Assembly (NCBI RefSeq): GCF_988242995.1
Contig: NZ_OZ547043.1
Strand: one strand, 5' to 3'
DNA: 64,000 bases
Part shown: in pieces, positions 1-47,363 of the stretch
How the letters are laid out: every line of letters starts with the position of its first letter
Position numbering within the stretch: position 1 is the stretch's first letter
Position numbers and translations under genes: made by a program
The notes under the pieces: model-generated
Seen by the model: only the letters and a program-made list of their open reading frames with translations
Told to the model about the DNA's origin: nothing
The model's database searches: none

Positions 1-109
1 GAAAACGGTCAATACTGTTCTTCTTTAATACTGTTTCATCGGTAATTACGCGATCTGCACCAACAATTTCCTTTAGCTGGTCGACAATCGCTGCGCGAGA
101 TAAAGACAT
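1..109 (-). CDS. ygcU: N-terminal part of FAD-linked oxidoreductase (gene continues beyond window start)
   Basis: Minus-strand translation from ATG (complement of 107-109) reads MSLSRAAIVDQLKEIVGADRVITDE...; position upstream of ygcW matches K-12 order. Truncated by window edge. Confidence 0.45.
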   Translation of the reverse strand, partial: MSLSRAAIVDQLKEIVGADRVITDETVLKKNSIDRF

Positions 110-178
110 AGTAATTCCTTCCTGATAATAAAAATGGAATAATCATTAATAAGAGAAAACAGAAACCACCGTTATGGA

Positions 179-964
179 TTAGCGCACTAAATAACCGCCA
201 TCAACCACTAATAAATGTCCGTTGACATAATTCGATGCCGGACTTGCGAGGAATACGGCTGCGCCCATTAAATCCTGAGTATCGCCCCAACGGTTTGCCG
301 GAATATGATCAAGAACGCGCTGGTTAGTTTCTGGATTACTACGGGTCGCCAGAGTGATATCGGTAGCGTAATATCCCGGAGCAATACCATTTACCTGAAT
401 ATTATATTGACCTAGTTCATCACAATAAGCTTTGGTGAACCCGGCAAGAGCATGTTTAGTGGCAGAATATGCAGGTGACCATTGTCCACCTAAGTAAGAG
501 AATAATGAACAGATATTAATGATTTTACCGCTTTTCTGCGGGATCATAATTTTTGCAGCTTCATAGCTTAACTCGAATGCGGCGGTCAGGTTCACATCAA
601 TCATCGGGTCCCAGTCGGCACGACCGAAGTCCAGCACCTTATTCAGCTTACAAATACCGGCATTGTTAATCAGAATATCGACGGTACCGAAACGTTCGCA
701 ACAGGCGGCGATTATCTTCTGCGGCGCGCCTTCTGCGGTGATATCCACCTGCATGAAGTCCACCTCAACACCCTGTTTTTCAATCATTTCCTTTGTTTCG
801 CCGTTATCTTTAACGAAGCTTGGAATAAAGATATTTGCGCCTGCTTTGGCCAGCGCCATGGCAAATGCCTGGCCTAAACCGCTATTCCCGCCGGTAACAA
901 TTGCGGTTTTACCTTTCAGGGAGAAAAAATCCATTGAGAACGCATTGAGAGATTCGATTGACAT
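179..964 (-). CDS. ygcW: Short-chain dehydrogenase/reductase family oxidoreductase
   Basis: ORF track 179..1039; start moved to internal Met (MSIESLNAF...) preceded by GGAG; TGxxxGxxG Rossmann motif (IVTGGNSGLG) and SDR catalytic Y-x3-K (YSATK). The 5' extension in the track translates a hairpin. Confidence 0.85.
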   Translation of the reverse strand: MSIESLNAFSMDFFSLKGKTAIVTGGNSGLGQAFAMALAKAGANIFIPSFVKDNGETKEMIEKQGVEVDFMQVDITAEGAPQKIIAACCERFGTVDILINNAGICKLNKVLDFGRADWDPMIDVNLTAAFELSYEAAKIMIPQKSGKIINICSLFSYLGGQWSPAYSATKHALAGFTKAYCDELGQYNIQVNGIAPGYYATDITLATRSNPETNQRVLDHIPANRWGDTQDLMGAAVFLASPASNYVNGHLLVVDGGYLVR

Positions 965-988
965 AGTTAGCTCCAATTTCCGTAAGGC

Positions 989-1035
989 AAAAAAAAAGAA
1001 AGGTAACTTCCCCCGCGAGAGGGAAGTTACCTTTC
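989..1035 (-). terminator. Perfect 15-bp inverted repeat (gaaaggtaacttccc / gggaagttacctttc, 8-nt loop) followed on the minus strand by a 9-T run; attenuator-like element in the ygcW 5' leader
   Basis: Read directly: arms 998-1012 and 1021-1035 are exact reverse complements; A9 run at 989-997 on + strand is a T9 run on minus strand, about 25 nt upstream of the ygcW start codon. Confidence 0.4.
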
Positions 1036-1088
1036 TCATTATCTCTGGTAACTGGAGATAATTTTTATCATAAGGGCATAATCGCTAA

Positions 1089-1104
1089 TGTGATCGTAAT
1101 CACA
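1089..1104. promoter_or_regulatory. Candidate cAMP-CRP binding site, TGTGA-N6-TCACA
   Basis: Sequence tgtgatcgtaatcaca matches both CRP half-sites with the canonical 6-bp spacer; lies between divergent ygcW and yqcE. Confidence 0.5.
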
Positions 1105-1282
1105 GTGTGATATTCGAATTGTCAAATAATTTTAAAAAGCAGAAGCGTGATTACTCTCACACAACACCACTACTTTCCATGTTATTTCTTATTGCAATTA
1201 CTAGAGACCTGAGAAAAGTAATCCACCTGAAAGGGCGGCTTACTTTTCTCTTTTTTTTGTCTATTACAAATGGGAATACGAT

Positions 1283-2560
1283 ATGCAACACAACTCATAT
1301 CGCCGTTGGATAACCCTCGCGATAATTAGTTTTAGCGGCGGCGTTAGTTTCGACCTGGCTTATTTACGTTATATTTATCAAATTCCCATGGCGAAATTTA
1401 TGGGATTCAGCAATACCGAGATAGGTTTAATAATGAGTACCTTTGGTATTGCGGCTATTATTCTTTATGCCCCCAGCGGCGTTATTGCCGATAAATTTTC
1501 ACACCGCAAAATGATTACTTCCGCGATGATCATTACCGGATTACTGGGTCTGTTAATGGCAACATATCCACCGCTGTGGGTAATGCTCTGTATTCAGGTC
1601 GCCTTTGCGATAACGACGATTTTAATGCTGTGGTCGGTGTCGATTAAAGCCGCCTCGTTGCTGGGCGATCATAGCGAGCAAGGGAAAATTATGGGCTGGA
1701 TGGAAGGGCTGCGCGGCGTCGGTGTAATGTCGCTGGCGGTGTTTACCATGTGGGTCTTTTCTCGCTTTGCACCGGATGACAGCGCCAGCCTGAAAACGGT
1801 CATTATTATCTATAGTGTGGTTTACATTCTGCTGGGCATTTTGTGTTGGTTTTTTGTTAGCAATAACAACAACCTGCGCAATACCAATAACGAAGAAAAA
1901 CAGTCATTCCAGCTTAGCGACATCCTGGCCGTTTTGCGCATCAGCACCACCTGGTATTGCAGCATGGTGATTTTTGGTGTCTTCACCATCTACGCCATTC
2001 TGAGTTACTCCACCAACTATCTGACCGAAATGTACGGCATGTCGCTGGTGGCGGCGAGCTACATGGGGATTGTGATCAACAAAATCTTCCGCGCACTGTG
2101 CGGACCACTTGGTGGCATTATCACCACCTACAGCAAAGTGAAATCCCCTACCCGCGTGATCCAAATCCTTTCCGTACTCGGCTTACTGGCGTTAACTGCC
2201 CTGCTCGTCACGAACTCTAACCCGCAATCGGTCGCGATGGGGATTGGCCTGATTTTACTGCTGGGATTCACCTGTTACGCCTCACGCGGGCTGTACTGGG
2301 CCTGCCCTGGCGAAGCGAGAACACCGTCTTACATTATGGGCACCACGGTAGGTATTTGTTCGGTGATTGGATTCCTGCCGGATGTCTTCGTTTACCCGAT
2401 TATCGGCTACTGGCAAGACACCCTGCCCGCTGCAGAAGCCTACCGCAATATGTGGCTGATGGGCATGGCGGCGCTTGCCATGGTGATCGTCTTTACCTTT
2501 TTGCTGTTCCAAAAAATTCGTACTGCTGATAGCGCCCCTGCTATGGCTAGCAGCAAGTAA
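1283..2560 (+). CDS. yqcE: MFS-family transporter, 12 predicted TM segments
   Basis: 425-aa ORF, highly hydrophobic, MFS-like; divergent from ygcW and followed by sugar kinase ygcE. Confidence 0.85.
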   Translation: MQHNSYRRWITLAIISFSGGVSFDLAYLRYIYQIPMAKFMGFSNTEIGLIMSTFGIAAIILYAPSGVIADKFSHRKMITSAMIITGLLGLLMATYPPLWVMLCIQVAFAITTILMLWSVSIKAASLLGDHSEQGKIMGWMEGLRGVGVMSLAVFTMWVFSRFAPDDSASLKTVIIIYSVVYILLGILCWFFVSNNNNLRNTNNEEKQSFQLSDILAVLRISTTWYCSMVIFGVFTIYAILSYSTNYLTEMYGMSLVAASYMGIVINKIFRALCGPLGGIITTYSKVKSPTRVIQILSVLGLLALTALLVTNSNPQSVAMGIGLILLLGFTCYASRGLYWACPGEARTPSYIMGTTVGICSVIGFLPDVFVYPIIGYWQDTLPAAEAYRNMWLMGMAALAMVIVFTFLLFQKIRTADSAPAMASSK

Positions 2561-2586
2561 GTCCAGAAAATTACAGGAGAAAAATC

Positions 2587-4065
2587 ATGTCGAAAAAATA
2601 CATCATAGGGATTGATGGTGGAAGTCAGAGCACAAAAGTGGTGATGTACGATCTGGAAGGTAATGTGGTTTGCGAAGGCAAAGGCTTATTGCAGCCGATG
2701 CACACGCCAGATGCCGATACCGCAGAACATCCTGACGACGATTTATGGGCATCATTATGCTTTGCCGGTCACGATTTGATGAGTCAGTTTGCCGGAAATA
2801 AAGAAGATATTGTCGGTATTGGTCTGGGATCCATCCGTTGCTGCCGTGCGTTATTGAAAGCCGATGGCACGCCAGCTGCGCCGTTGATTAGCTGGCAGGA
2901 TGCACGCGTTACACGCCCTTACGAACATACGAATCCTGACGTGGCATATGTCACCTCTTTTTCAGGTTATCTGACGCATCGCTTAACCGGCGAGTTTAAA
3001 GACAATATCGCCAACTATTTTGGTCAGTGGCCGGTGGATTATAAGACCTGGGCATGGAGTGAAGATGCCGCAGTCATGGAGAAGTTTAATATCCCCCGTC
3101 ATATGCTGTTTGATGTGCAAATGCCGGGCACTGTTCTTGGGCATATCACTCCTCAAGCCGCGCTGGCGACACATTTCCCGGCTGGGCTGCCGGTTGTTTG
3201 TACCACCAGTGATAAACCGGTTGAAGCACTGGGAGCTGGGTTACTGGATGATGAAACGGCGGTAATTTCTCTTGGCACTTACATCGCGCTGATGATGAAC
3301 GGCAAAGCACTGCCGAAAGATCCGCTGGCGTACTGGCCGATTATGTCTTCTATTCCGCAAACATTGCTGTATGAAGGTTACGGTATCCGCAAAGGCATGT
3401 GGACGGTGAGCTGGCTACGCGACATGCTAGGCGAGTCGTTAATTCAGGATGCCAAAGCACAGGATCTTTCACCGGAAGATTTACTCAACAAAAAAGCGTC
3501 TTGTGTGCCGCCAGGCTGTAATGGTCTGATGACGGTGCTGGACTGGCTGACCAATCCGTGGGAACCGTACAAACGCGGGATTATGATCGGCTTTGATTCC
3601 AGCATGGATTACGCATGGATATATCGTTCGATACTGGAAAGCGTGGCGCTGACGCTGAAGAACAATTTCGACAATATGTGTAATGAAATGAATCACTTTG
3701 CAAAGCATGTGATCATTACTGGCGGCGGTTCGAACAGCGATCTGTTTATGCAGATTTTTGCCGACGTGTTCAACCTTCCGGCACGCCGTAACGCCATTAA
3801 TGGTTGTGCAAGCCTGGGGGCAGCGATTAATACGGCGGTAGGTCTGGGGCTATACCCGGATTACGCAACGGCTGTCGACAAAATGGTTCGCGTGAAAGAT
3901 ATCTTTATGCCTGTTGAGAACAATGCCAAACGCTACGACGCGATGAATAAAGGCATTTTCAAGGAGTTAACCAAACATACTGATGTAATCCTGAAAAAAT
4001 CGTATGAAGTGATGCATGGGGAATTGGGGAATGCGGATTCGATCCAGAGCTGGTCGAATGCGTAA
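2587..4065 (+). CDS. ygcE: FGGY-family carbohydrate kinase
   Basis: 492-aa ORF; N-terminal IGIDGGSQSTK sugar-kinase fold motif; RBS aggaga 7 nt upstream. Confidence 0.85.
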   Translation: MSKKYIIGIDGGSQSTKVVMYDLEGNVVCEGKGLLQPMHTPDADTAEHPDDDLWASLCFAGHDLMSQFAGNKEDIVGIGLGSIRCCRALLKADGTPAAPLISWQDARVTRPYEHTNPDVAYVTSFSGYLTHRLTGEFKDNIANYFGQWPVDYKTWAWSEDAAVMEKFNIPRHMLFDVQMPGTVLGHITPQAALATHFPAGLPVVCTTSDKPVEALGAGLLDDETAVISLGTYIALMMNGKALPKDPLAYWPIMSSIPQTLLYEGYGIRKGMWTVSWLRDMLGESLIQDAKAQDLSPEDLLNKKASCVPPGCNGLMTVLDWLTNPWEPYKRGIMIGFDSSMDYAWIYRSILESVALTLKNNFDNMCNEMNHFAKHVIITGGGSNSDLFMQIFADVFNLPARRNAINGCASLGAAINTAVGLGLYPDYATAVDKMVRVKDIFMPVENNAKRYDAMNKGIFKELTKHTDVILKKSYEVMHGELGNADSIQSWSNA

Positions 4066-15233: not shown

Positions 15234-17990
15234 ATGACCAACTACAGCCTGCGCGCACGCATGATGATTCTGATCCTGGCACCGACCGTCCTTATTGGTT
15301 TATTGCTGAGTATCTTTTTCGTTGTGCATCGCTATAACGATTTGCAGCGTCAACTGGAAGATGCCGGAGCCAGCATTATTGAGCCGCTTGCAGTTTCTAC
15401 TGAATATGGCATGAGCCTGCAAAATCGCGAATCTATCGGTCAGTTAATAAGCGTACTGCATCGTCGCCATTCCGATATTGTTCGCGCGATTTCGGTTTAT
15501 GATGAAAATAACCGACTCTTTGTCACCTCCAATTTTCATCTTGATCCCTCATCAATGCAGCTCGGCAGCAACGTGCCGTTTCCTCGCCAGCTCACTGTCA
15601 CTCGTGACGGCGATATTATGATCCTCCGCACACCGATTATTTCTGAGAGTTACTCCCCCGACGAATCGCCCAGTAGCGATGCCAAAAATAGTCAAAATAT
15701 GTTGGGATATATTGCGCTTGAGCTGGATCTTAAATCGGTTCGCTTGCAGCAATATAAAGAGATCTTTATTTCCAGCGTGATGATGCTGTTTTGTATCGGT
15801 ATTGCGCTTATTTTTGGCTGGCGCTTAATGCGCGATGTAACCGGTCCGATTCGCAATATGGTGAATACCGTCGACCGCATCCGTCGCGGGCAACTCGACA
15901 GCCGGGTGGAAGGATTTATGCTCGGCGAGCTGGATATGCTGAAAAACGGTATCAACTCGATGGCAATGTCGCTGGCTGCTTATCACGAAGAGATGCAGCA
16001 CAATATCGACCAGGCGACGTCCGATCTGCGTGAAACGCTGGAGCAGATGGAAATTCAGAACGTTGAGTTGGATCTGGCGAAAAAGCGTGCCCAGGAAGCG
16101 GCGCGTATTAAATCCGAGTTTCTGGCAAATATGTCACACGAGCTGCGTACACCACTGAATGGTGTTATTGGCTTTACTCGCCTGACGCTGAAAACAGAAT
16201 TAACACCAACGCAGCGCGATCACCTGAATACGATTGAACGTTCGGCAAATAATTTGCTGGCAATTATTAATGATGTTCTCGACTTCTCGAAACTGGAAGC
16301 AGGTAAGCTGATTCTGGAAAGTATTCCATTCCCACTACGCAGCACGCTGGATGAAGTCGTTACCCTGCTGGCACATTCTTCTCACGATAAAGGGCTGGAA
16401 CTGACGCTCAATATTAAGAGCGACGTGCCCGATAACGTAATTGGCGACCCACTGCGATTACAGCAAATCATCACTAACCTGGTAGGGAATGCAATTAAAT
16501 TCACCGAGAATGGCAACATTGATATTCTGGTAGAAAAACGTGCGCTGAGTAATACCAAAGTGCAGATTGAAGTGCAGATTCGGGATACCGGCATTGGTAT
16601 TCCTGAACGCGATCAATCGCGCTTATTCCAGGCCTTCCGACAGGCTGATGCCAGTATTTCCCGCCGTCATGGTGGCACCGGGCTGGGGCTGGTGATTACA
16701 CAAAAACTGGTTAATGAAATGGGCGGCGATATTTCGTTCCATAGCCAGCCGAATCGCGGTTCAACTTTCTGGTTCCACATTAATCTCGATCTGAACCCGA
16801 ACATTATTATCGAAGGGCCATCCACCCAGTGCCTAGCCGGCAAGCGCCTGGCCTATGTCGAACCAAACTCCGCAGCAGCGCAATGCACGCTGGATATTTT
16901 AAGTGAAACGCCGCTGGAAGTGGTTTATAGCCCAACGTTCTCCGCGCTGCCTCCCGCGCATTACGACATGATGTTGTTAGGCATCGCGGTGACCTTCCGC
17001 GAGCCGCTAACAATGCAACATGAGCGATTAGCGAAAGCGGTATCGATGACCGATTTTCTGATGCTGGCACTTCCTTGCCATGCACAAGTCAATGCTGAAA
17101 AACTTAAGCAAGATGGTATCGGCGCGTGTCTGCTGAAACCATTAACACCTACGCGCCTGTTACCTGCCCTGACGGAATTTTGTCATCACAAACAAAACAC
17201 GCTTTTGCCTGTAACCGATGAAAGTAAGCTGGCAATGACAGTCATGGCGGTTGATGACAACCCCGCTAACCTGAAACTTATCGGCGCATTGCTGGAAGAT
17301 ATGGTGCAACATGTGGAACTTTGCGATAGCGGGCATCAGGCGGTTGAACGGGCGAAACAAATGCCGTTCGATTTGATCTTAATGGATATTCAAATGCCGG
17401 ACATGGACGGCATTCGGGCCTGCGAGCTCATCCACCAGCTCCCCCATCAGCAACAAACGCCAGTTATCGCGGTAACGGCGCATGCAATGGCCGGGCAAAA
17501 AGAGAAGCTGCTTGGCGCAGGGATGAGCGATTATCTGGCGAAACCGATTGAAGAAGAGCGATTGCATAATTTGTTGTTGCGCTACAAGCCTGGCAGCGGT
17601 ATTTCCTCTCGCGTCGTGACGCCCGAAGTCAACGAAATTGTGGTGAACCCGAATGCGACCCTCGACTGGCAACTGGCACTACGCCAGGCAGCAGGAAAAA
17701 CCGATTTAGCGCGCGATATGCTGCAAATGTTACTCGATTTCCTGCCTGAAGTTCGCAACAAAGTTGAGGAACAGCTGGTTGGAGAAAACCCGGAAGGCCT
17801 GGTTGATTTGATTCATAAACTGCATGGCAGTTGCGGCTATAGCGGTGTGCCGCGTATGAAGAATCTCTGCCAACTGATCGAACAACAGCTACGTAGCGGT
17901 ACTAAAGAAGAAGATTTGGAGCCGGAGCTGCTGGAACTGTTAGACGAGATGGATAATGTAGCGCGCGAAGCCAGCAAAATTCTCGGGTAA
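15234..17990 (+). CDS. barA: Hybrid sensor histidine kinase of the BarA/UvrY two-component system
   Basis: 918-aa ORF with HAMP, HisKA (H-box SHELRTPLN), HATPase, receiver and HPt domains. Confidence 0.95.
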
Positions 17991-18121
17991 CGGACGTCTT
18001 GTCGAGTCAAAATAGGTTCCGTCCAATGCCAATGCTGGGAGCAGCACAGACAGTCCCCTCGCCCCTCCGGGGAGAGGGCGAGGGGGAAAACCGGCCCCGT
18101 AAACCACTTCGTCAGTAATCT

Positions 18122-18160
18122 CAAACCGACTTCTTATGAAGCCGGTTTTGGTTTTCTGTC
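18122..18160 (+). terminator. Probable barA intrinsic terminator
   Basis: Imperfect hairpin (aaaccgacttc-ttat-gaagccggttt) followed by ttttggttttc. Confidence 0.4.
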
Positions 18161-45184: not shown

Positions 45185-45215
45185 CGGATAAGACGTTCGC
45201 GTCGCATCCGACCTG
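45185..45215. repeat. REP element between csdE and tcdA
   Basis: gtcggataagacgttcgcgtcgcatccgac palindromic unit. Confidence 0.6.
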
Positions 45216-45220
45216 ATTGT

Positions 45221-46027
45221 TTACCCCTGACGGGCCGCTTTCGCCATCATCTTCTTCAGCGCATGAGAAACCGCAACAAAACCAAAGGTGGCGGTCACCA
45301 TCGTCGCGGCACCAAATCCAGATGCACAATCCATCCGCTTTGGCCCTTCCGCCGTAGCTTTCATTGCACAGACCGTGCCATCTGACTGCGGGTACACCAG
45401 CGCTTCGGTAGAGAACACGCAATCCACGCCGAGCTTACCTTTGCTGTTTTTCACTACGCCAAAATCGCTTTTCAGGCGCTCGCGCAACTTCGCCGCCAGC
45501 GGGTCCTGAATCGTTTTCGCCAGATCGGTAACCTGAATCTGCGTCGGGTCAATCTGCCCACCCGCGCCACCGGTTGTGACCAGTGGAATTTTATTGCGCC
45601 GACAATAAGCAATCAGCGCCGCTTTGGGCCGTACACTATCAATGGCATCAATCACGTACGAATAACCCACGCTCATATACTGCGCTACGTTATCCGGCGT
45701 CACGAAATCATCCACCACCGTTACACGGCACTCCGGGTTAATCTGGCGAATACGCTCCGCCATAACTTCCGCTTTTGCCAGCCCAACGTTATCGCGCAGG
45801 GCATGAATTTGCCGATTGGTATTGGTGACGCACACATCATCCATATCGATAAGCGTGATTGCGCCAATCCCCGTGCGCGCCAGCGCTTCCGCCGCCCAGG
45901 AACCGACCCCCCCAATACCCACCACACAAATATGTGCATCGGCAAACAGTTGCAGCGCTTTTTCACCATACAGACGCGCAGTACCACCAAAACGCTGACG
46001 CCATGCATCACTAATTACCACAGACAT
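45221..46027 (-). CDS. tcdA: tRNA threonylcarbamoyladenosine dehydratase (E1-like)
   Basis: 268-aa ThiF/MoeB-family ORF with GxGxxG nucleotide-binding motif. Confidence 0.85.
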   Translation of the reverse strand: MSVVISDAWRQRFGGTARLYGEKALQLFADAHICVVGIGGVGSWAAEALARTGIGAITLIDMDDVCVTNTNRQIHALRDNVGLAKAEVMAERIRQINPECRVTVVDDFVTPDNVAQYMSVGYSYVIDAIDSVRPKAALIAYCRRNKIPLVTTGGAGGQIDPTQIQVTDLAKTIQDPLAAKLRERLKSDFGVVKNSKGKLGVDCVFSTEALVYPQSDGTVCAMKATAEGPKRMDCASGFGAATMVTATFGFVAVSHALKKMMAKAARQG

Positions 46028-46039
46028 AGCACCTCAGAA

Positions 46040-46250
46040 TTAAAAAGGGCGAGGTTATCCCTCACCCTAAACGCATAAATGCCTGATGCGCTACGCTTAT
46101 CAGGCCTACATAACTCCTGCAATATTTTGGATTTGCATGATTTGTAGGCCGGATAAGGCGTTCACGCCGCATCCGGCATGAACAACGCGCACTTAGTCAA
46201 TAATCAGGATGTGAGGTTACCCCTCACCCTGTCATATCCGTAAAAACGGC
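46040..46250. repeat. Composite REP cluster flanked by near-identical GGTGAGGG-type hairpin units
   Basis: REP units gcctgatgcgctacgcttatcaggcctaca and gtaggccggataaggcgttcacgccgcatccggca; flanking repeats gaggttatccctcaccct (46052-46069) and gaggttacccctcaccct (46215-46232). Confidence 0.7.
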
Positions 46251-46265
46251 ATACAGAATATCACA

Positions 46266-47363
46266 TCAGCCGCTAAAGACGTTACCTGCGCCCGGAGCCG
46301 TTTTCAGCACCCAGACACGTCCATAGTGGTTGTACCAACCTGCGCGGTGCCCGGCTTCCGGCCCGATCCCTTGATAGATATCGAAGTGTTGGCCTTTGAT
46401 TGCGCCACCGACATCCAGCGCCACCATCAGACGCAATTCGTACTGACCGTTAAATTTGCCGTTATTATCCAGCAGCGGCACTTCTGCCAGCAAGGTAGTA
46501 CCTGGCGGAATAATTGAACGATCGGAGGCAACAGAAGCACGGCCAACCAGCGGCACCGCACTTGCCCCTTTCACCGGTGCAAAAGATTGCGGTTTAAAGA
46601 AGACGAAAGACGGGTTCTGTTCCAGCAGCTCGCGAACCTCGGCTTCACTGTGTGTTTCGCCCCAGTGACGAATCGCCTGCATCGACATATCTTCTTTTTT
46701 CACTTCGCCACGGTCGATCAGCACCTTACCAATGCTGCGATAGGCATGACCGTTTTTCCCTGCATAGCTGAAAAAGTTAAGCGGACTGCCATCACCAAAG
46801 TCGATATACCCACTACCCTGCACATCCATAATGAAGTTATCCATCAGGGAGTTACTGTAAGCGAGAATATATTTATCACTCAATGCCCCCGCGTAGATCT
46901 CCGCACGAGACGGCAGACGACCACGTTTTGGCGGCATACGGTAAATCGGATACTGGAACTCGCCCTGGCGGGTATGGCGCGCCTGAATTACCGGCGTGTA
47001 ATAGCCTGTAAACTGCACGTTACCATAGTTGTCGGCACCTTCCATCTGCCAGGCATCAATGCCGAACTGGCGCATATTGCGGGTATCACCGCCTGCGCGC
47101 AGCCACTCTTGCACCGCGTTATAAACATTACTCTGGTTGCCATACAGACGCGGTGACGAATTACGGATATGGTTAATTTGCTCGGCAAAATCACCGGCGT
47201 TAATCGGCGCGCCAACGGCATCTGGCTGGTTCACCAGAGAGAAAGGCTGGGTAAATTTCCCGTCTTTATATTGCTGTCCGCGATCGGTTGGTTTGGAAGA
47301 GCAGGCGGCAAGCATTGCCACAACCGTGCCCATAAGAAGGTACTTTACCCAACGTCCTTTCAT
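46266..47363 (-). CDS. mltA: Membrane-bound lytic murein transglycosylase A
   Basis: ORF track extends to 47645 across the tRNA genes; start moved to MKGRWVKYLLMGTVVAMLAACSS (lipoprotein signal), 365 aa. Confidence 0.9.
   Translation of the reverse strand: MKGRWVKYLLMGTVVAMLAACSSKPTDRGQQYKDGKFTQPFSLVNQPDAVGAPINAGDFAEQINHIRNSSPRLYGNQSNVYNAVQEWLRAGGDTRNMRQFGIDAWQMEGADNYGNVQFTGYYTPVIQARHTRQGEFQYPIYRMPPKRGRLPSRAEIYAGALSDKYILAYSNSLMDNFIMDVQGSGYIDFGDGSPLNFFSYAGKNGHAYRSIGKVLIDRGEVKKEDMSMQAIRHWGETHSEAEVRELLEQNPSFVFFKPQSFAPVKGASAVPLVGRASVASDRSIIPPGTTLLAEVPLLDNNGKFNGQYELRLMVALDVGGAIKGQHFDIYQGIGPEAGHRAGWYNHYGRVWVLKTAPGAGNVFSG

What the first reader, a model, noticed from the sequence alone, without database searches (positions are those of the whole stretch)
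46040..46250. Composite repeat island between tcdA and mltA, plus a related palindrome between barA and gudD
Two classical REP palindromes are bracketed by near-identical 18-bp units (gaggttatccctcaccct / gaggttacccctcaccct) that can each fold as a short hairpin. A related G/C-rich palindrome (cccctcgcccctccggggagagggcgaggggg) sits at 18053-18084 between barA and gudD. Such BIME-like structures bind gyrase and IHF and can mark transposition or recombination hot spots.
Basis: seen in the sequence. Interest (0 to 1): 0.25.

Follow-up and report, generated by a model that had tools for sequence, protein, structure and literature searches.

The report
BIME-1 repeat bracketed by duplicated terminator
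The "repeat island" is an ordinary E. coli BIME-1 (two REP palindromes plus a linker), but the 18-mers around it are two copies of the local mltA terminator hairpin, and this hairpin duplication recurs at many other BIME-1 sites.

Summary
The sequence features are real. The window is E. coli. Between tcdA and mltA lies a 142-bp BIME-1: a Z1 REP, an L linker, an inverted Y REP and a tail motif. The 18-mers extend to 20 nt. They are not a repeat family, because each E. coli genome carries them only at this locus. They are two copies of the mltA intrinsic-terminator hairpin. About half of 5,426 E. coli genomes lack exactly 162 bp here and keep one perfect hairpin plus a T-run. Citrobacter, Enterobacter, Leclercia, Phytobacter and Salmonella also have one hairpin. 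Divergent Escherichia, including E. albertii, carry the insert.

The pattern is general. Nine of 20 other full-length BIME-1 loci are flanked by a duplicated local hairpin. Three of these loci have "empty" alleles with a single hairpin. Unrelated inserts in Cedecea and Kosakonia show the same duplication at this terminator.

The barA-gudD palindrome belongs to a different known family, BoxC/PIT/TMECO. It lacks the third block and looks like the collapsed remnant of an inverted BoxC pair. This allele class occurs in about 3% of genomes.

The hairpin-length target duplication may be an under-described clue to how BIME-1 inserts.

The parts
46036..46068 (-). tcdA-proximal copy of the mltA terminator. 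The hairpin AGGGTGAGGGATAACCTCGCCCT occupies 46068-46046 and the T-run TTTTTAATTC follows directly, 8 nt upstream of the tcdA start codon.
   Evidence: The terminator scan calls it. The fold is -17.2 kcal/mol, z -4.8. The same hairpin plus T-run sits at this position in Citrobacter, Enterobacter, Leclercia, Phytobacter and Salmonella.
46069..46080 (+). Truncated left end motif of the BIME-1 (AAACGCATAAAT). Full-length copies begin GAGACTGATGACAAACGCAAAA, so about 12 nt are missing here.
   Evidence: Alignment to the entD-fepA paralog shows homology starting exactly at 46069. The consensus comes from about 50 BIME-1 contexts.
46081..46109 (+). Z1-type REP / palindromic unit, GCCTGATGCGCTACGCTTATCAGGCCTAC.
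   Evidence: Inverted repeats I2 and I4. An exact 27-mer of it hits at least 120 metagenome stretches. Z1 + Y composition defines BIME-1 (PMC3333891).
46110..46143 (.). L linker of the BIME-1. Its best IHF-consensus match, ATCCAAAATATTG on the minus strand, has 2 mismatches. It also matches the Rfam ES036/CssrF sRNA model.
   Evidence: IHF pattern. (RF02751, 46.5 bits against a gathering score of 37.6, 46102-46144 minus strand).
46144..46177 (-). Y-type REP, inverted relative to the Z1 REP: GTAGGCCGGATAAGGCGTTCACGCCGCATCCGGC.
   Evidence: Inverted repeat I3. It is identical to the paralog in the alignment.
46178..46210 (+). Right end motif of the BIME-1, ATGAACAACGCGCACTTAGTCAATAATCAGGAT. The family consensus is GAACAAAGCGCACTTTGTCAGCAATCTGA.
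   Evidence: Paralog homology runs to about 46205-46209. Consensus.
46211..46230 (-). mltA-proximal, partial copy of the terminator hairpin (GTGAGGTTACCCCTCACCCT on the plus strand). It lacks the T-run and the outer 3 nt of one arm.
46049..46210 (.). The 162-bp block, one hairpin copy plus the BIME-1, that is absent from about half of E. coli genomes. The coordinates are one of several equivalent placements within the repeat.
   Evidence: 2,751 genomes are filled and 2,670 are empty. The alignment of empty alleles shows one perfect hairpin.
45221..46027 (-). tcdA (ygdL) coding sequence, downstream of the terminator.
   Evidence: ORF list. RefSeq annotation of matching genomes.
46266..47363 (-). 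mltA coding sequence. Its terminator is the duplicated hairpin.
18050..18092 (+). BoxC/PIT/TMECO-family element with only two of the three blocks: ACAGTCCCCTCGCCCCTCCGGGGAGAGGGCGAGGGGGAAAAC.
   Evidence: The two-block pattern matches once, at 18056-18078, and the three-block pattern not at all. It is 96.6% identical over 29 nt to a BoxC sequence modelled on the ycjD-fabI copy. Paralogs are shown and the allele comparison.

Best explanation
**The tcdA-mltA island.** It is a BIME-1, a roughly 140-bp non-autonomous REP doublet of Z1 REP, L linker and inverted Y REP with terminal motifs. It sits inside the intrinsic terminator of mltA. The two 18-mers are the target itself. When the element entered, the whole terminator stem-loop was duplicated. 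One copy now lies on the mltA side without a T-run. The other keeps the T-run just upstream of tcdA. The mltA transcript should therefore run through the first hairpin and the BIME-1 and end at the second hairpin (inferred).

**Age and loss.** The insertion is old, because it is shared by E. albertii and other divergent Escherichia. Its ends are eroded. Because the BIME-1 is a long inverted repeat flanked by 20-bp direct repeats, it can be lost cleanly by replication slippage. That would restore one hairpin and would explain why about 49% of E. coli genomes are "empty" (inferred).

**Generality.** The same hairpin-length duplication, symmetric about the hairpin axis, flanks many other BIME-1 copies. 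I infer that integration involves cuts at the foot of the hairpin on both strands followed by fill-in. This model is not shown.

**The barA-gudD palindrome.** It is unrelated. It is a BoxC/TMECO element lacking the third block, most likely the collapsed remnant of an inverted BoxC pair.
For: **Identity as BIME-1.**
- It has a Z1 REP, a Y REP and a long linker, 142 bp in all.
- The closest paralog, in the entD-fepA spacer, aligns over positions 1-137 at about 90%. Homology starts exactly at the junction with the hairpin.
- The family definition is in PMC3333891.

**The hairpin is the local target.**
- It occurs only at this locus in 5,425 genomes.
- Empty alleles read GAATTAAAAAGGGTGAGGTTAYCCCTCACCCTGTC, which is one perfect hairpin.
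- Most non-Escherichia outgroups that carry this hairpin have it once, followed by a T-run, directly before tcdA. The exception is Kosakonia sp. S29, listed under "Independent inserts" below.
- Genera with a different hairpin still have a hairpin plus T-run at this position.
- The terminator scan and the fold support a terminator.

**Age of the insertion.** E. albertii (L012), Escherichia sp. E1V33 (L011) and a lineage 6-7% divergent from E. coli (L010) are all filled.

**Loss rather than gain within E. coli.**
- The indel state does not follow the flank haplotype. Filled PI7 and TW14425 differ from empty strains by 5-6 per 1000 in mltA, but from filled K-12 by 21 per 1000.
- There are two empty types with different loop and spacer haplotypes.

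**Generality across BIME-1 loci.**
- Nine of 20 distinct full-length BIME-1 loci from metagenome contigs have left and right flank similarity above the 99th percentile of mismatched-pair controls.
- Empty alleles with one hairpin were verified at tkt-prohibitin, metE-ysgA and artJ-rlmC. These alleles lack 170-174 bp.

**Independent inserts at the same terminator.** Cedecea-group loci L049, L051 and L065 carry 22-26-nt duplicated hairpins. Kosakonia L025 shows the same by eye.

**BoxC.**
- The palindrome region has a median of 12 places per genome.
- Paralogs include the ycjD-fabI copy.
- The window allele equals the ETEC1701 inverted pair minus its interior.
- PMC4666352 describes the consensus and this "palindrome effect".
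Against: **Gaps in the insertion model.**
- No insertion event was observed, so the link between insertion and duplication is inferred from end states.
- Eleven of 20 full-length BIME-1 loci show no clear flank duplication, and many have a hairpin on one side only.
- The transposase family thought to move REPs, the IS200/IS605-like RAYT, makes no target duplication (PMC2817692). The proposed cut-and-fill step therefore has no known enzyme.

**Irregularities at the focal locus.** One element end is truncated by about 12 nt. One hairpin copy lacks 3 nt plus a 2-nt irregularity. The focal locus is therefore the least clean example.

**Polarity within E. coli.** It is not proven. Recombination could move an ancestral empty allele between lineages. 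E. fergusonii and E. marmotae were not sampled.

**Prior description.** I could not read Bachellier et al. 1997, so the flank duplication may already be described there.
Confidence: 0.8

Rival explanations
1. The 18-mers are outer modules of a composite BIME-like repeat family, and the barA-gudD palindrome is a member of the same family.
For: The hairpin arms (GGGTGAGGG / CCTCACCC) have the same block type as BoxC/TMECO blocks. In Pseudocitrobacter (L069, L079) a full three-block BoxC directly abuts the orthologous hairpin and shares its arm.
Against: - The hairpin is found only at its own locus, with 1 or 2 places per genome.
- Paralogous BIME-1 copies lack it, and their homology stops at the junction.
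- Other BIME-1 loci carry different, locus-specific hairpins.
- The shared 12-mer has E = 0.12 in the window, and two of its bases come from the BIME end.
Confidence: 0.04
2. The duplication was not made by the insertion. Either the terminator hairpin first duplicated in tandem and a BIME-1 later landed between the copies, or a second hairpin was selected afterwards to restore termination.
For: Short tandem duplications are common. The T-run-bearing copy is under obvious selection, since a hairpin plus T-run is conserved before tcdA in many genera.
Against: - No sampled genome has two adjacent hairpins without an insert.
- The same architecture recurs at 9 of 20 other loci and with four different inserts at this terminator.
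- At the three clean loci the duplicated stretch is symmetric about the hairpin axis and abuts the element ends exactly.
Confidence: 0.08
3. The empty alleles in E. coli are the ancestral state kept as a polymorphism or re-imported by recombination. On this view they are not secondary precise deletions.
For: - The empty allele is identical in structure to the outgroup state.
- E. coli recombines freely, and the window's tcdA is itself 3.5-5.5% divergent while mltA differs by about 1%.
- The E2 empty type cannot be made from the K-12 filled allele by a single crossover.
Against: - All three divergent Escherichia lineages sampled are filled.
- Empty type E1 has the loop and spacer of the filled allele's mltA-side copy. 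It is 5 per 1000 from filled PI7 in mltA.
- The E2 type can be derived from a filled allele like L010, in which both copies read GTGAGGTTAT.
- BIME-1 presence/absence among isolates is a known pattern. My recollection of the Bachellier 1997 abstract, which I could not check, is that it is read there as excision (PMC1187871).
Confidence: 0.25
4. The flanking hairpins travel with the BIME-1 as part of the mobile unit.
For: They always abut the element ends.
Against: The hairpin sequence differs at every locus and matches the single hairpin of the empty allele at that same locus.
Confidence: 0.02

Closest known systems
BIME-1, also called RIP or RIB (Gilson, Bachellier and Hofnung; Oppenheim 1993; Boccard and Prentki 1993)
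   Same: - It has one Z1 and one Y palindromic unit in inverted orientation with a long L linker.
- It is about 140 bp, single-copy at its site and extragenic, at the 3' end of a gene.
- It is present or absent among isolates (PMC3333891, PMC1187871).
- The element upstream of ygdL (= tcdA) is already listed among BIME-derived candidate attenuators (PMC2965389).
   Different: This copy has a truncated left end motif and a linker with a weaker IHF-consensus match. I did not find the bracketing by a duplicated host terminator hairpin stated in the papers I could read.
REPIN / RAYT (TnpA_REP) systems, IS200/IS605-like
   Same: It is a REP doublet with GTAG/CTAC tags, of the kind thought to be mobilised in trans by a single-copy Y1 transposase.
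   Different: That transposase family makes no target duplication (PMC2817692). Here the flanks carry 17-26-nt duplications whose length follows the target hairpin. Inserts with the same CTGACAAA...TTTGTCA ends but no recognisable E. coli-type REPs (by eye) exist in Cedecea.
MITEs (terminal inverted repeats plus target-site duplication)
   Same: It is short and non-coding, forms a long inverted repeat overall, and is flanked by direct repeats of target sequence. Clean empty sites exist.
   Different: The duplication is much longer than usual and varies in length because it matches a whole stem-loop. It is not a fixed stagger.
BoxC / PIT / TMECO intrastrand-triplex repeats (Bergler 1992; Hoyne and Maher 2000; Holder 2015, PMC4666352)
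   Same: The barA-gudD element matches the family over ACAGTCCCCTCGCCCCTnnnGGGGAGAGGG and the trailing AAAA. It is intergenic and strain-variable. Its collapse to a hairpin fits the published "palindrome effect".
   Different: The third purine block is missing, so it cannot form the three-block triplex motif.
Precise excision of transposons by replication slippage between target duplications (for example Tn10, from my own knowledge)
   Same: The element is an inverted repeat flanked by short direct repeats, and its loss restores the original target.
   Different: Excision was not tested here. The repeats are 20 nt rather than 9 and are themselves palindromic.

Membership tests
BIME-1 (RIP/RIB) | One Z1 and one Y palindromic unit in opposite orientation | tested here: met
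   Z1 at 46081-46109 and Y at 46144-46177 in inverted orientation. Both are identical to the units of the entD-fepA BIME-1.
BIME-1 (RIP/RIB) | A long, conserved L linker carrying an IHF binding site | tested here: inconclusive
   A 34-nt linker homologous to the paralog's is present. The best match to WATCAANNNNTTR has 2 mismatches, against 1 in the paralog. Binding was not tested.
BIME-1 (RIP/RIB) | A single unit of about 140 bp, not a tandem array, in an extragenic position | tested here: met
   It is 142 bp, occurs once, and lies between the mltA stop codon and the tcdA start codon.
BIME-1 (RIP/RIB) | Dispersed paralogs in the same genome | tested here: met
   In genomes lacking this copy, the best other place covers positions 1-137 at 88-90%. 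About 50 distinct Z1-containing contexts, mostly BIME-1, were recovered with the Z1 pattern.
BIME-1 (RIP/RIB) | External end motifs on both sides (consensus GAGACTGATGACAAACGC ... CACTTTGTCAGCAATCTGA) | tested here: inconclusive
   The right motif is present in diverged form. The left motif is truncated to AAACGC.
Gyrase-binding BIME (BIME-2 / atypical) | Tandem Y/Z2 units with short linkers, and gyrase binding or cleavage | tested here: not met
   There is no Z2 unit and no tandem array. Binding itself cannot be tested here. The literature assigns strong gyrase binding to BIME-2 (PMC2817692).
Intrinsic (Rho-independent) terminator | A G+C-rich stem-loop followed by a T-run on the transcribed strand, downstream of a gene | tested here: met
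   A 9-bp stem with 6 G-C pairs followed by TTTTTAATTC, 198 nt past the mltA stop in the window and 36 nt in empty alleles. A hairpin plus T-run is kept at this position across genera, even where the hairpin sequence differs.
Intrinsic (Rho-independent) terminator | Transcripts actually end there | not testable with these tools
   This needs 3'-end mapping.
   There are 1 or 2 places per genome, all at tcdA-mltA, and only the two copies in the window.
BoxC / PIT / TMECO | Three blocks, CCCTCNCCC N3-6 GGGNGAGGG N3 GGGNGAGGG | tested here: not met
   The first two blocks match at 18056-18078. The full pattern has 0 matches in the window. The third block is replaced by CGAGGGGG.
BoxC / PIT / TMECO | Sequence similarity to family members, including flanking ACAGT and AAAA, with many copies per genome and an intergenic position | tested here: met
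   Median 12 and maximum 21 places per genome. Paralogs at yihR-yihS, gntP-fimH, argE and ycjD-fabI align. The match to a BoxC sequence modelled on the ycjD-fabI copy is 96.6% over 29 nt.
MITE-like transposable element | Terminal inverted repeats and a target-site duplication with clean empty sites | tested here: met
   The ends CTGATGACAAA and TTTGTCAGCAATCTGA are inverted relative to each other. Empty sites exist at four loci.
MITE-like transposable element | Mobilisation by a transposase | not testable with these tools
   No insertion event was observed and no enzyme is assigned.

The most novel reading that the evidence does not exclude
BIME-1, and a wider enterobacterial set of small elements with CTGACAAA...TTTGTCA ends, integrates specifically at intrinsic-terminator stem-loops, between stem and T-run. 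Integration duplicates the whole stem-loop, giving a target duplication whose length (17-26 nt) is set by the hairpin and is symmetric about its axis. That would imply structure-directed cutting at the hairpin foot on both strands, for example at an extruded hairpin or cruciform. This differs from the duplication-free single-strand "peel and paste" mechanism assumed for REP/RAYT elements. It would also explain why BIME-1 sits at 3' ends of transcription units and excises cleanly.
Probability: 0.35. Interest if true: 0.6.

Novelty: already known. Interest (0 to 1): 0.35.

Why it matters
The elements themselves are textbook E. coli repeats, so the finding as written is ordinary. How REPs and BIMEs spread, however, is still unresolved. 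No in vivo transposition of an E. coli BIME has been shown, and the associated transposase family leaves no footprint. A reproducible footprint therefore gives a concrete, testable signature of the insertion step. The footprint here is a duplicated host terminator hairpin, with matching empty sites at four loci and in several genera.

The architecture also predicts how it affects expression. Both convergent transcripts would carry the BIME-1 in their 3' UTR and still terminate. In addition, it explains the roughly 50:50 presence/absence polymorphism at this locus.

Tried and rejected
- **K-12 annotation.** The RefSeq annotation of K-12 at this locus lists no repeat features, so I found no official REP/RIP name.
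- **Bachellier et al. 1997.** The paper (PMC1207841) is not held. Six literature searches on BIME, REP or RIP terms found no statement that BIME-1 is flanked by a duplicated terminator. This is absence in the held library only.
- **Rfam.** Besides the ES036/CssrF hit on the linker, it gave only sub-threshold naRNA4 (REP) hits.
- **Flank-haplotype distances.** They did not cleanly polarise gain against loss within E. coli, because the locus is recombinant.
- **Microhomology.** I looked by eye for microhomology at the junctions that would support template switching and saw none.
- **RAYT-type C|T sites.** I considered that cleavage sites at both element ends (GAGAC|TGA ... AATC|TGA) define the mobile unit. 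Excision there would leave hairpin-GAGACTGA-hairpin, which no empty allele shows.
- **Gapless repeat finder.** It missed the diverged hairpin pairs in E. albertii and Kosakonia, so those rest on reading the sequences.
- **First boundary detector.** It handled only 19 of 50 loci. A second version handled 48.

Full report
**What is in the sequence.**

The window is E. coli. It is 99.5% identical to strain 118UI over the locus. tcdA (45221-46027) and mltA (46266-47363) both lie on the minus strand. They are the only two matches in the window even at 3 mismatches, where shuffles give 0.01.

The repeat extends to 20 nt: GCGAGGTTATCCCTCACCCT against GTGAGGTTACCCCTCACCCT. Between the two copies lie four parts:
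- a Z1-type REP at 46081-46109;
- a 34-nt linker;
- an inverted Y-type REP at 46144-46177;
- a 33-nt tail.

The palindrome between barA and gudD is also present.

**The insert is a BIME-1.**

One Z1 unit, one Y unit and a long linker is the published definition of BIME-1 (PMC3333891). I searched with the 142-bp insert alone. Every genome that lacks it at this locus returned another copy covering positions 1-137 at 88-90% identity. That copy lies in the entD-fepA spacer. In the alignment, homology begins exactly at 46069, the first base after the left 20-mer, and fades at about 46205-46209. The 20-mers are therefore outside the repeated element.

Naville and Gautheret already listed the element upstream of ygdL (= tcdA) among BIME-derived candidate attenuators (PMC2965389).

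**The 18-mers are the mltA terminator, duplicated.**

Only 2,751 of 5,426 complete E. coli genomes contain the whole region. The others match in two pieces that lie about 162 bp closer together, which equals the spacing of the repeats. Their sequence reads GAATTAAAAAGGGTGAGGTTA(C/T)CCCTCACCCTGTC. This is one perfect 9-bp hairpin. On the mltA-sense strand it is followed by TTTTTAATTC and then the tcdA ribosome-binding site.

The fold results are as follows:
- In the window, the copy next to tcdA is called terminator-like. It folds at -17.2 kcal/mol with z -4.8.
- The copy next to mltA has no T-run and folds less well, at -14.1 kcal/mol with z -2.6.

A 46-nt query made from the empty allele finds one place in empty genomes and two in filled ones. 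A few genomes have up to four places. 2,670 genomes match it in full. The 18-mer is therefore unique to this locus.

**Polarity.**

I fetched the tcdA region from 80 species representatives. Citrobacter amalonaticus, C. sedlakii, Phytobacter massiliensis, Enterobacter mori, E. asburiae, Leclercia and Salmonella enterica subsp. arizonae each have a single GGGTGAGG..CTCACCC hairpin plus T-run directly before tcdA. Genera with a different hairpin, such as Kosakonia and Cedecea, still have a hairpin plus T-run at that position. One hairpin is therefore ancestral and it behaves as a terminator.

Three divergent Escherichia lineages all carry the BIME-1 between two hairpin copies:
- E. albertii (L012);
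- Escherichia sp. E1V33 (L011);
- a record labelled E. coli that is 6-7% divergent (L010).

The insertion therefore predates E. coli.

Within E. coli I compared five filled and five empty strains. The indel state does not follow the flanking haplotype. Filled PI7 and TW14425 are 5-6 substitutions per 1000 from the empty strains in mltA, but 21-25 per 1000 from filled K-12 and 95-3192.

There are two empty types:
- **E1** has the loop (TTAC) and spacer of the filled allele's mltA-side copy.
- **E2** has TTAT and a spacer haplotype shared in part with the divergent filled lineage L010.

I read this as at least two precise deletions between the repeats. Retention or re-import of an ancestral empty allele is not excluded, and I give that about 0.25. 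Presence/absence of BIME-1 among isolates is a known pattern (PMC1187871).

**The pattern is general.**

This result goes beyond the finding as given. An exact Z1 pattern recovered at least 120 metagenome stretches, which resolve into about 50 distinct contexts. Full-length copies share this architecture:

[local hairpin] (T)GAGAYTGATGACAAACGCAAAA - Z1 - L - Y - GAACAAAGCGCACTTTGTCAGCAATCTGA [same hairpin] TTTT

The evidence is in two parts.
- **Flank similarity.** Twenty distinct loci have both end motifs, not counting the focal locus. In nine of them the left and right flanks are similar above the 99th percentile of mismatched left/right pairs. The scores are 10.5-17. The control mean is 5.5 and the control 99th percentile is 9.0.
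- **Empty alleles at three tested loci.** Empty alleles exist and hold exactly one hairpin.

| Locus | Filled among complete E. coli genomes |
|---|---|
| tkt-prohibitin | 1,366 |
| artJ-rlmC | 3,176 |
| metE-ysgA | 0 (filled only in a metagenome contig about 92% identical) |

In these three loci the duplicated stretch is 17-22 nt. It covers the stem-loop symmetrically and excludes the T-run. The element therefore lies between the stem and the T-run.

At the mltA terminator itself, other genera carry different inserts with the same signature:
- Cedecea-group loci L049 and L065 share one insert, and L051 has another. All are flanked by 22-26-nt duplicated hairpins. Their relatives L040, L056 and L062 have one hairpin.
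- Kosakonia sp. S29 (L025) has a REP-type insert between two diverged copies.

All these inserts share CTGACAAA ... TTTGTCA termini with BIME-1.

**How it most likely works.**

Three points are shown:
- The element sits inside a terminator.
- The terminator stem-loop is present twice.
- Alleles with one stem-loop and no element exist.

Three points are inferred:
- The duplication was made at insertion. A cut at the foot of the hairpin on each strand, followed by fill-in, would give a duplication equal to the stem-loop and symmetric about its axis.
- The mltA transcript passes the first hairpin and the BIME-1 and ends at the second hairpin. At convergent gene pairs, both transcripts would carry the element in their 3' UTR and still terminate.
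- Loss occurs by replication slippage between the direct repeats. The long inverted repeat between them should favour this, as in precise excision of transposons (from my own knowledge).

The weak point is the enzyme. The REP-associated Y1 transposases belong to a family that makes no target duplication (PMC2817692). In addition, 11 of 20 loci lack a clear duplication.

The focal copy is an eroded example. Its left end motif is cut back to AAACGC. The mltA-side hairpin lacks three outer bases and has a 2-nt irregularity.

**The barA-gudD palindrome.**

A 71-nt query around it finds a median of 12 and up to 21 places per genome. Copies at yihR-yihS, gntP-fimH, downstream of argE and ycjD-fabI share ACAGTCCCCTCGCCCCTnnnGGGGAGAGGGTTAGGGTGAGGGGAAAA. 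This is the BoxC repeat, also called PIT or TMECO. Its consensus is CCCTCNCCC N3-6 GGGNGAGGG N3 GGGNGAGGG (PMC4666352).

The window copy matches the first two blocks but not the three-block pattern. After GGGAGAGGG it reads CGAGGGGG.

The locus has three alleles:
- K-12 and most strains carry a BIME-1 there.
- ETEC1701 carries an inverted BoxC pair.
- The window allele equals that pair with its interior removed, leaving a strong hairpin of -28 kcal/mol.

Holder et al. describe exactly this collapse as a "palindrome effect". Only 187-189 genomes carry the window-type or ETEC1701-type allele.

**Are the two sites related?**

They are not members of one family. BLAST of the terminator hairpin finds only its own locus.

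They do share a block type, because the hairpin arms are GGGTGAGGG / CCTCACCC. In Pseudocitrobacter (L069, L079) a full three-block BoxC directly abuts the orthologous hairpin and uses its arm as the third block. This may hint at a historical link. The evidence is thin, since the shared 12-mer has E = 0.12 in the window.

**Novelty and score.**

BIME-1, BoxC and BIME-1 presence/absence polymorphism are all known, so I rate the finding itself as already known. What I could not find in the accessible literature is the statement that BIME-1 is bracketed by a duplicated host terminator hairpin. The key 1997 paper was not available.

If this signature is both real as an insertion footprint and unreported, it bears on the open question of how REP/BIME elements spread. 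I give that combination about 0.35. I therefore set the overall interest above what the finding as written would deserve.

Noticed in passing
L101 (E. coli GPEC1209), orthologous to window 46028-46600: This is a third allele. About 300 bp of the mltA 3' end, plus spacer and hairpin, is duplicated. The junction ...CAGATT|TGTAGGCCGG lies exactly at the GTAG tag of the Y REP. RefSeq annotates the fragment as a partial '3D domain-containing protein'. It looks like a tandem duplication ending at the REP followed by hairpin-to-hairpin deletion.
   Followed up: partly
window 45221-46027 (tcdA) versus 46266-47363 (mltA): The window's tcdA differs from other E. coli by 3.5-5.5%, while its mltA differs by about 1%. 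This suggests a recombination boundary at or near the BIME-1.
   Followed up: no
window 46102-46144, minus strand: The BIME-1 linker matches the Rfam sRNA family ES036 (CssrF, RF02751) above its gathering score, 46.5 against 37.6 bits. That 'sRNA family' therefore appears to be the BIME-1 L motif.
   Followed up: no
window 45185-45210: A lone REP-like match (23 of 26 bases to the Y REP) lies in the csdE-tcdA spacer.
   Followed up: no
window 17990-18160; L090 (K-12), L091 (ETEC1701): The barA-gudD spacer has three unrelated fillings in different strains: a BIME-1, an inverted BoxC pair, and the collapsed palindrome. All lie next to the same shared terminator, AAACCGnCTnnnnnnnnAGCCGGTTTT. In K-12 a possible decayed second copy of that hairpin lies on the far side of the BIME-1.
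   Followed up: partly
L049 1302-1476, L065 1304-1476, L051 1294-1477, L025 about 1290-1480: Cedecea-group and Kosakonia genomes carry non-E. coli inserts at the mltA terminator. These have CTGACAAA...TTTGTCA ends and a duplicated terminator hairpin. The Cedecea inserts contain no recognisable E. coli-type REPs.
   Followed up: partly
L094 (gntP-fimH) and L095 (downstream of argE): BoxC copies sit inside the same kind of shell as BIME-1: a hairpin, then AGACTGATGACAAAG, then BoxC. L095 also ends in TTTGTCAGCAATCTCA. In L094 the BoxC lies directly next to a REP.
   Followed up: no
L069 1423-1455, L079 1368-1455, L031: In Pseudocitrobacter and an uncultured enterobacterium, the mltA-tcdA spacer holds full three-block BoxC/TMECO elements. 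In L079 they form an inverted pair. In the two Pseudocitrobacter loci the last block doubles as the 5' arm of the terminator hairpin.
   Followed up: no
L010 (record titled E. coli strain SCPM-O-B-8794): This species representative labelled E. coli is 6-7% divergent from the other E. coli in both tcdA and mltA. That is about as far as Escherichia sp. E1V33 in tcdA (5-6%) and a little nearer in mltA (about 8-9%). It is probably a cryptic Escherichia lineage.
   Followed up: no
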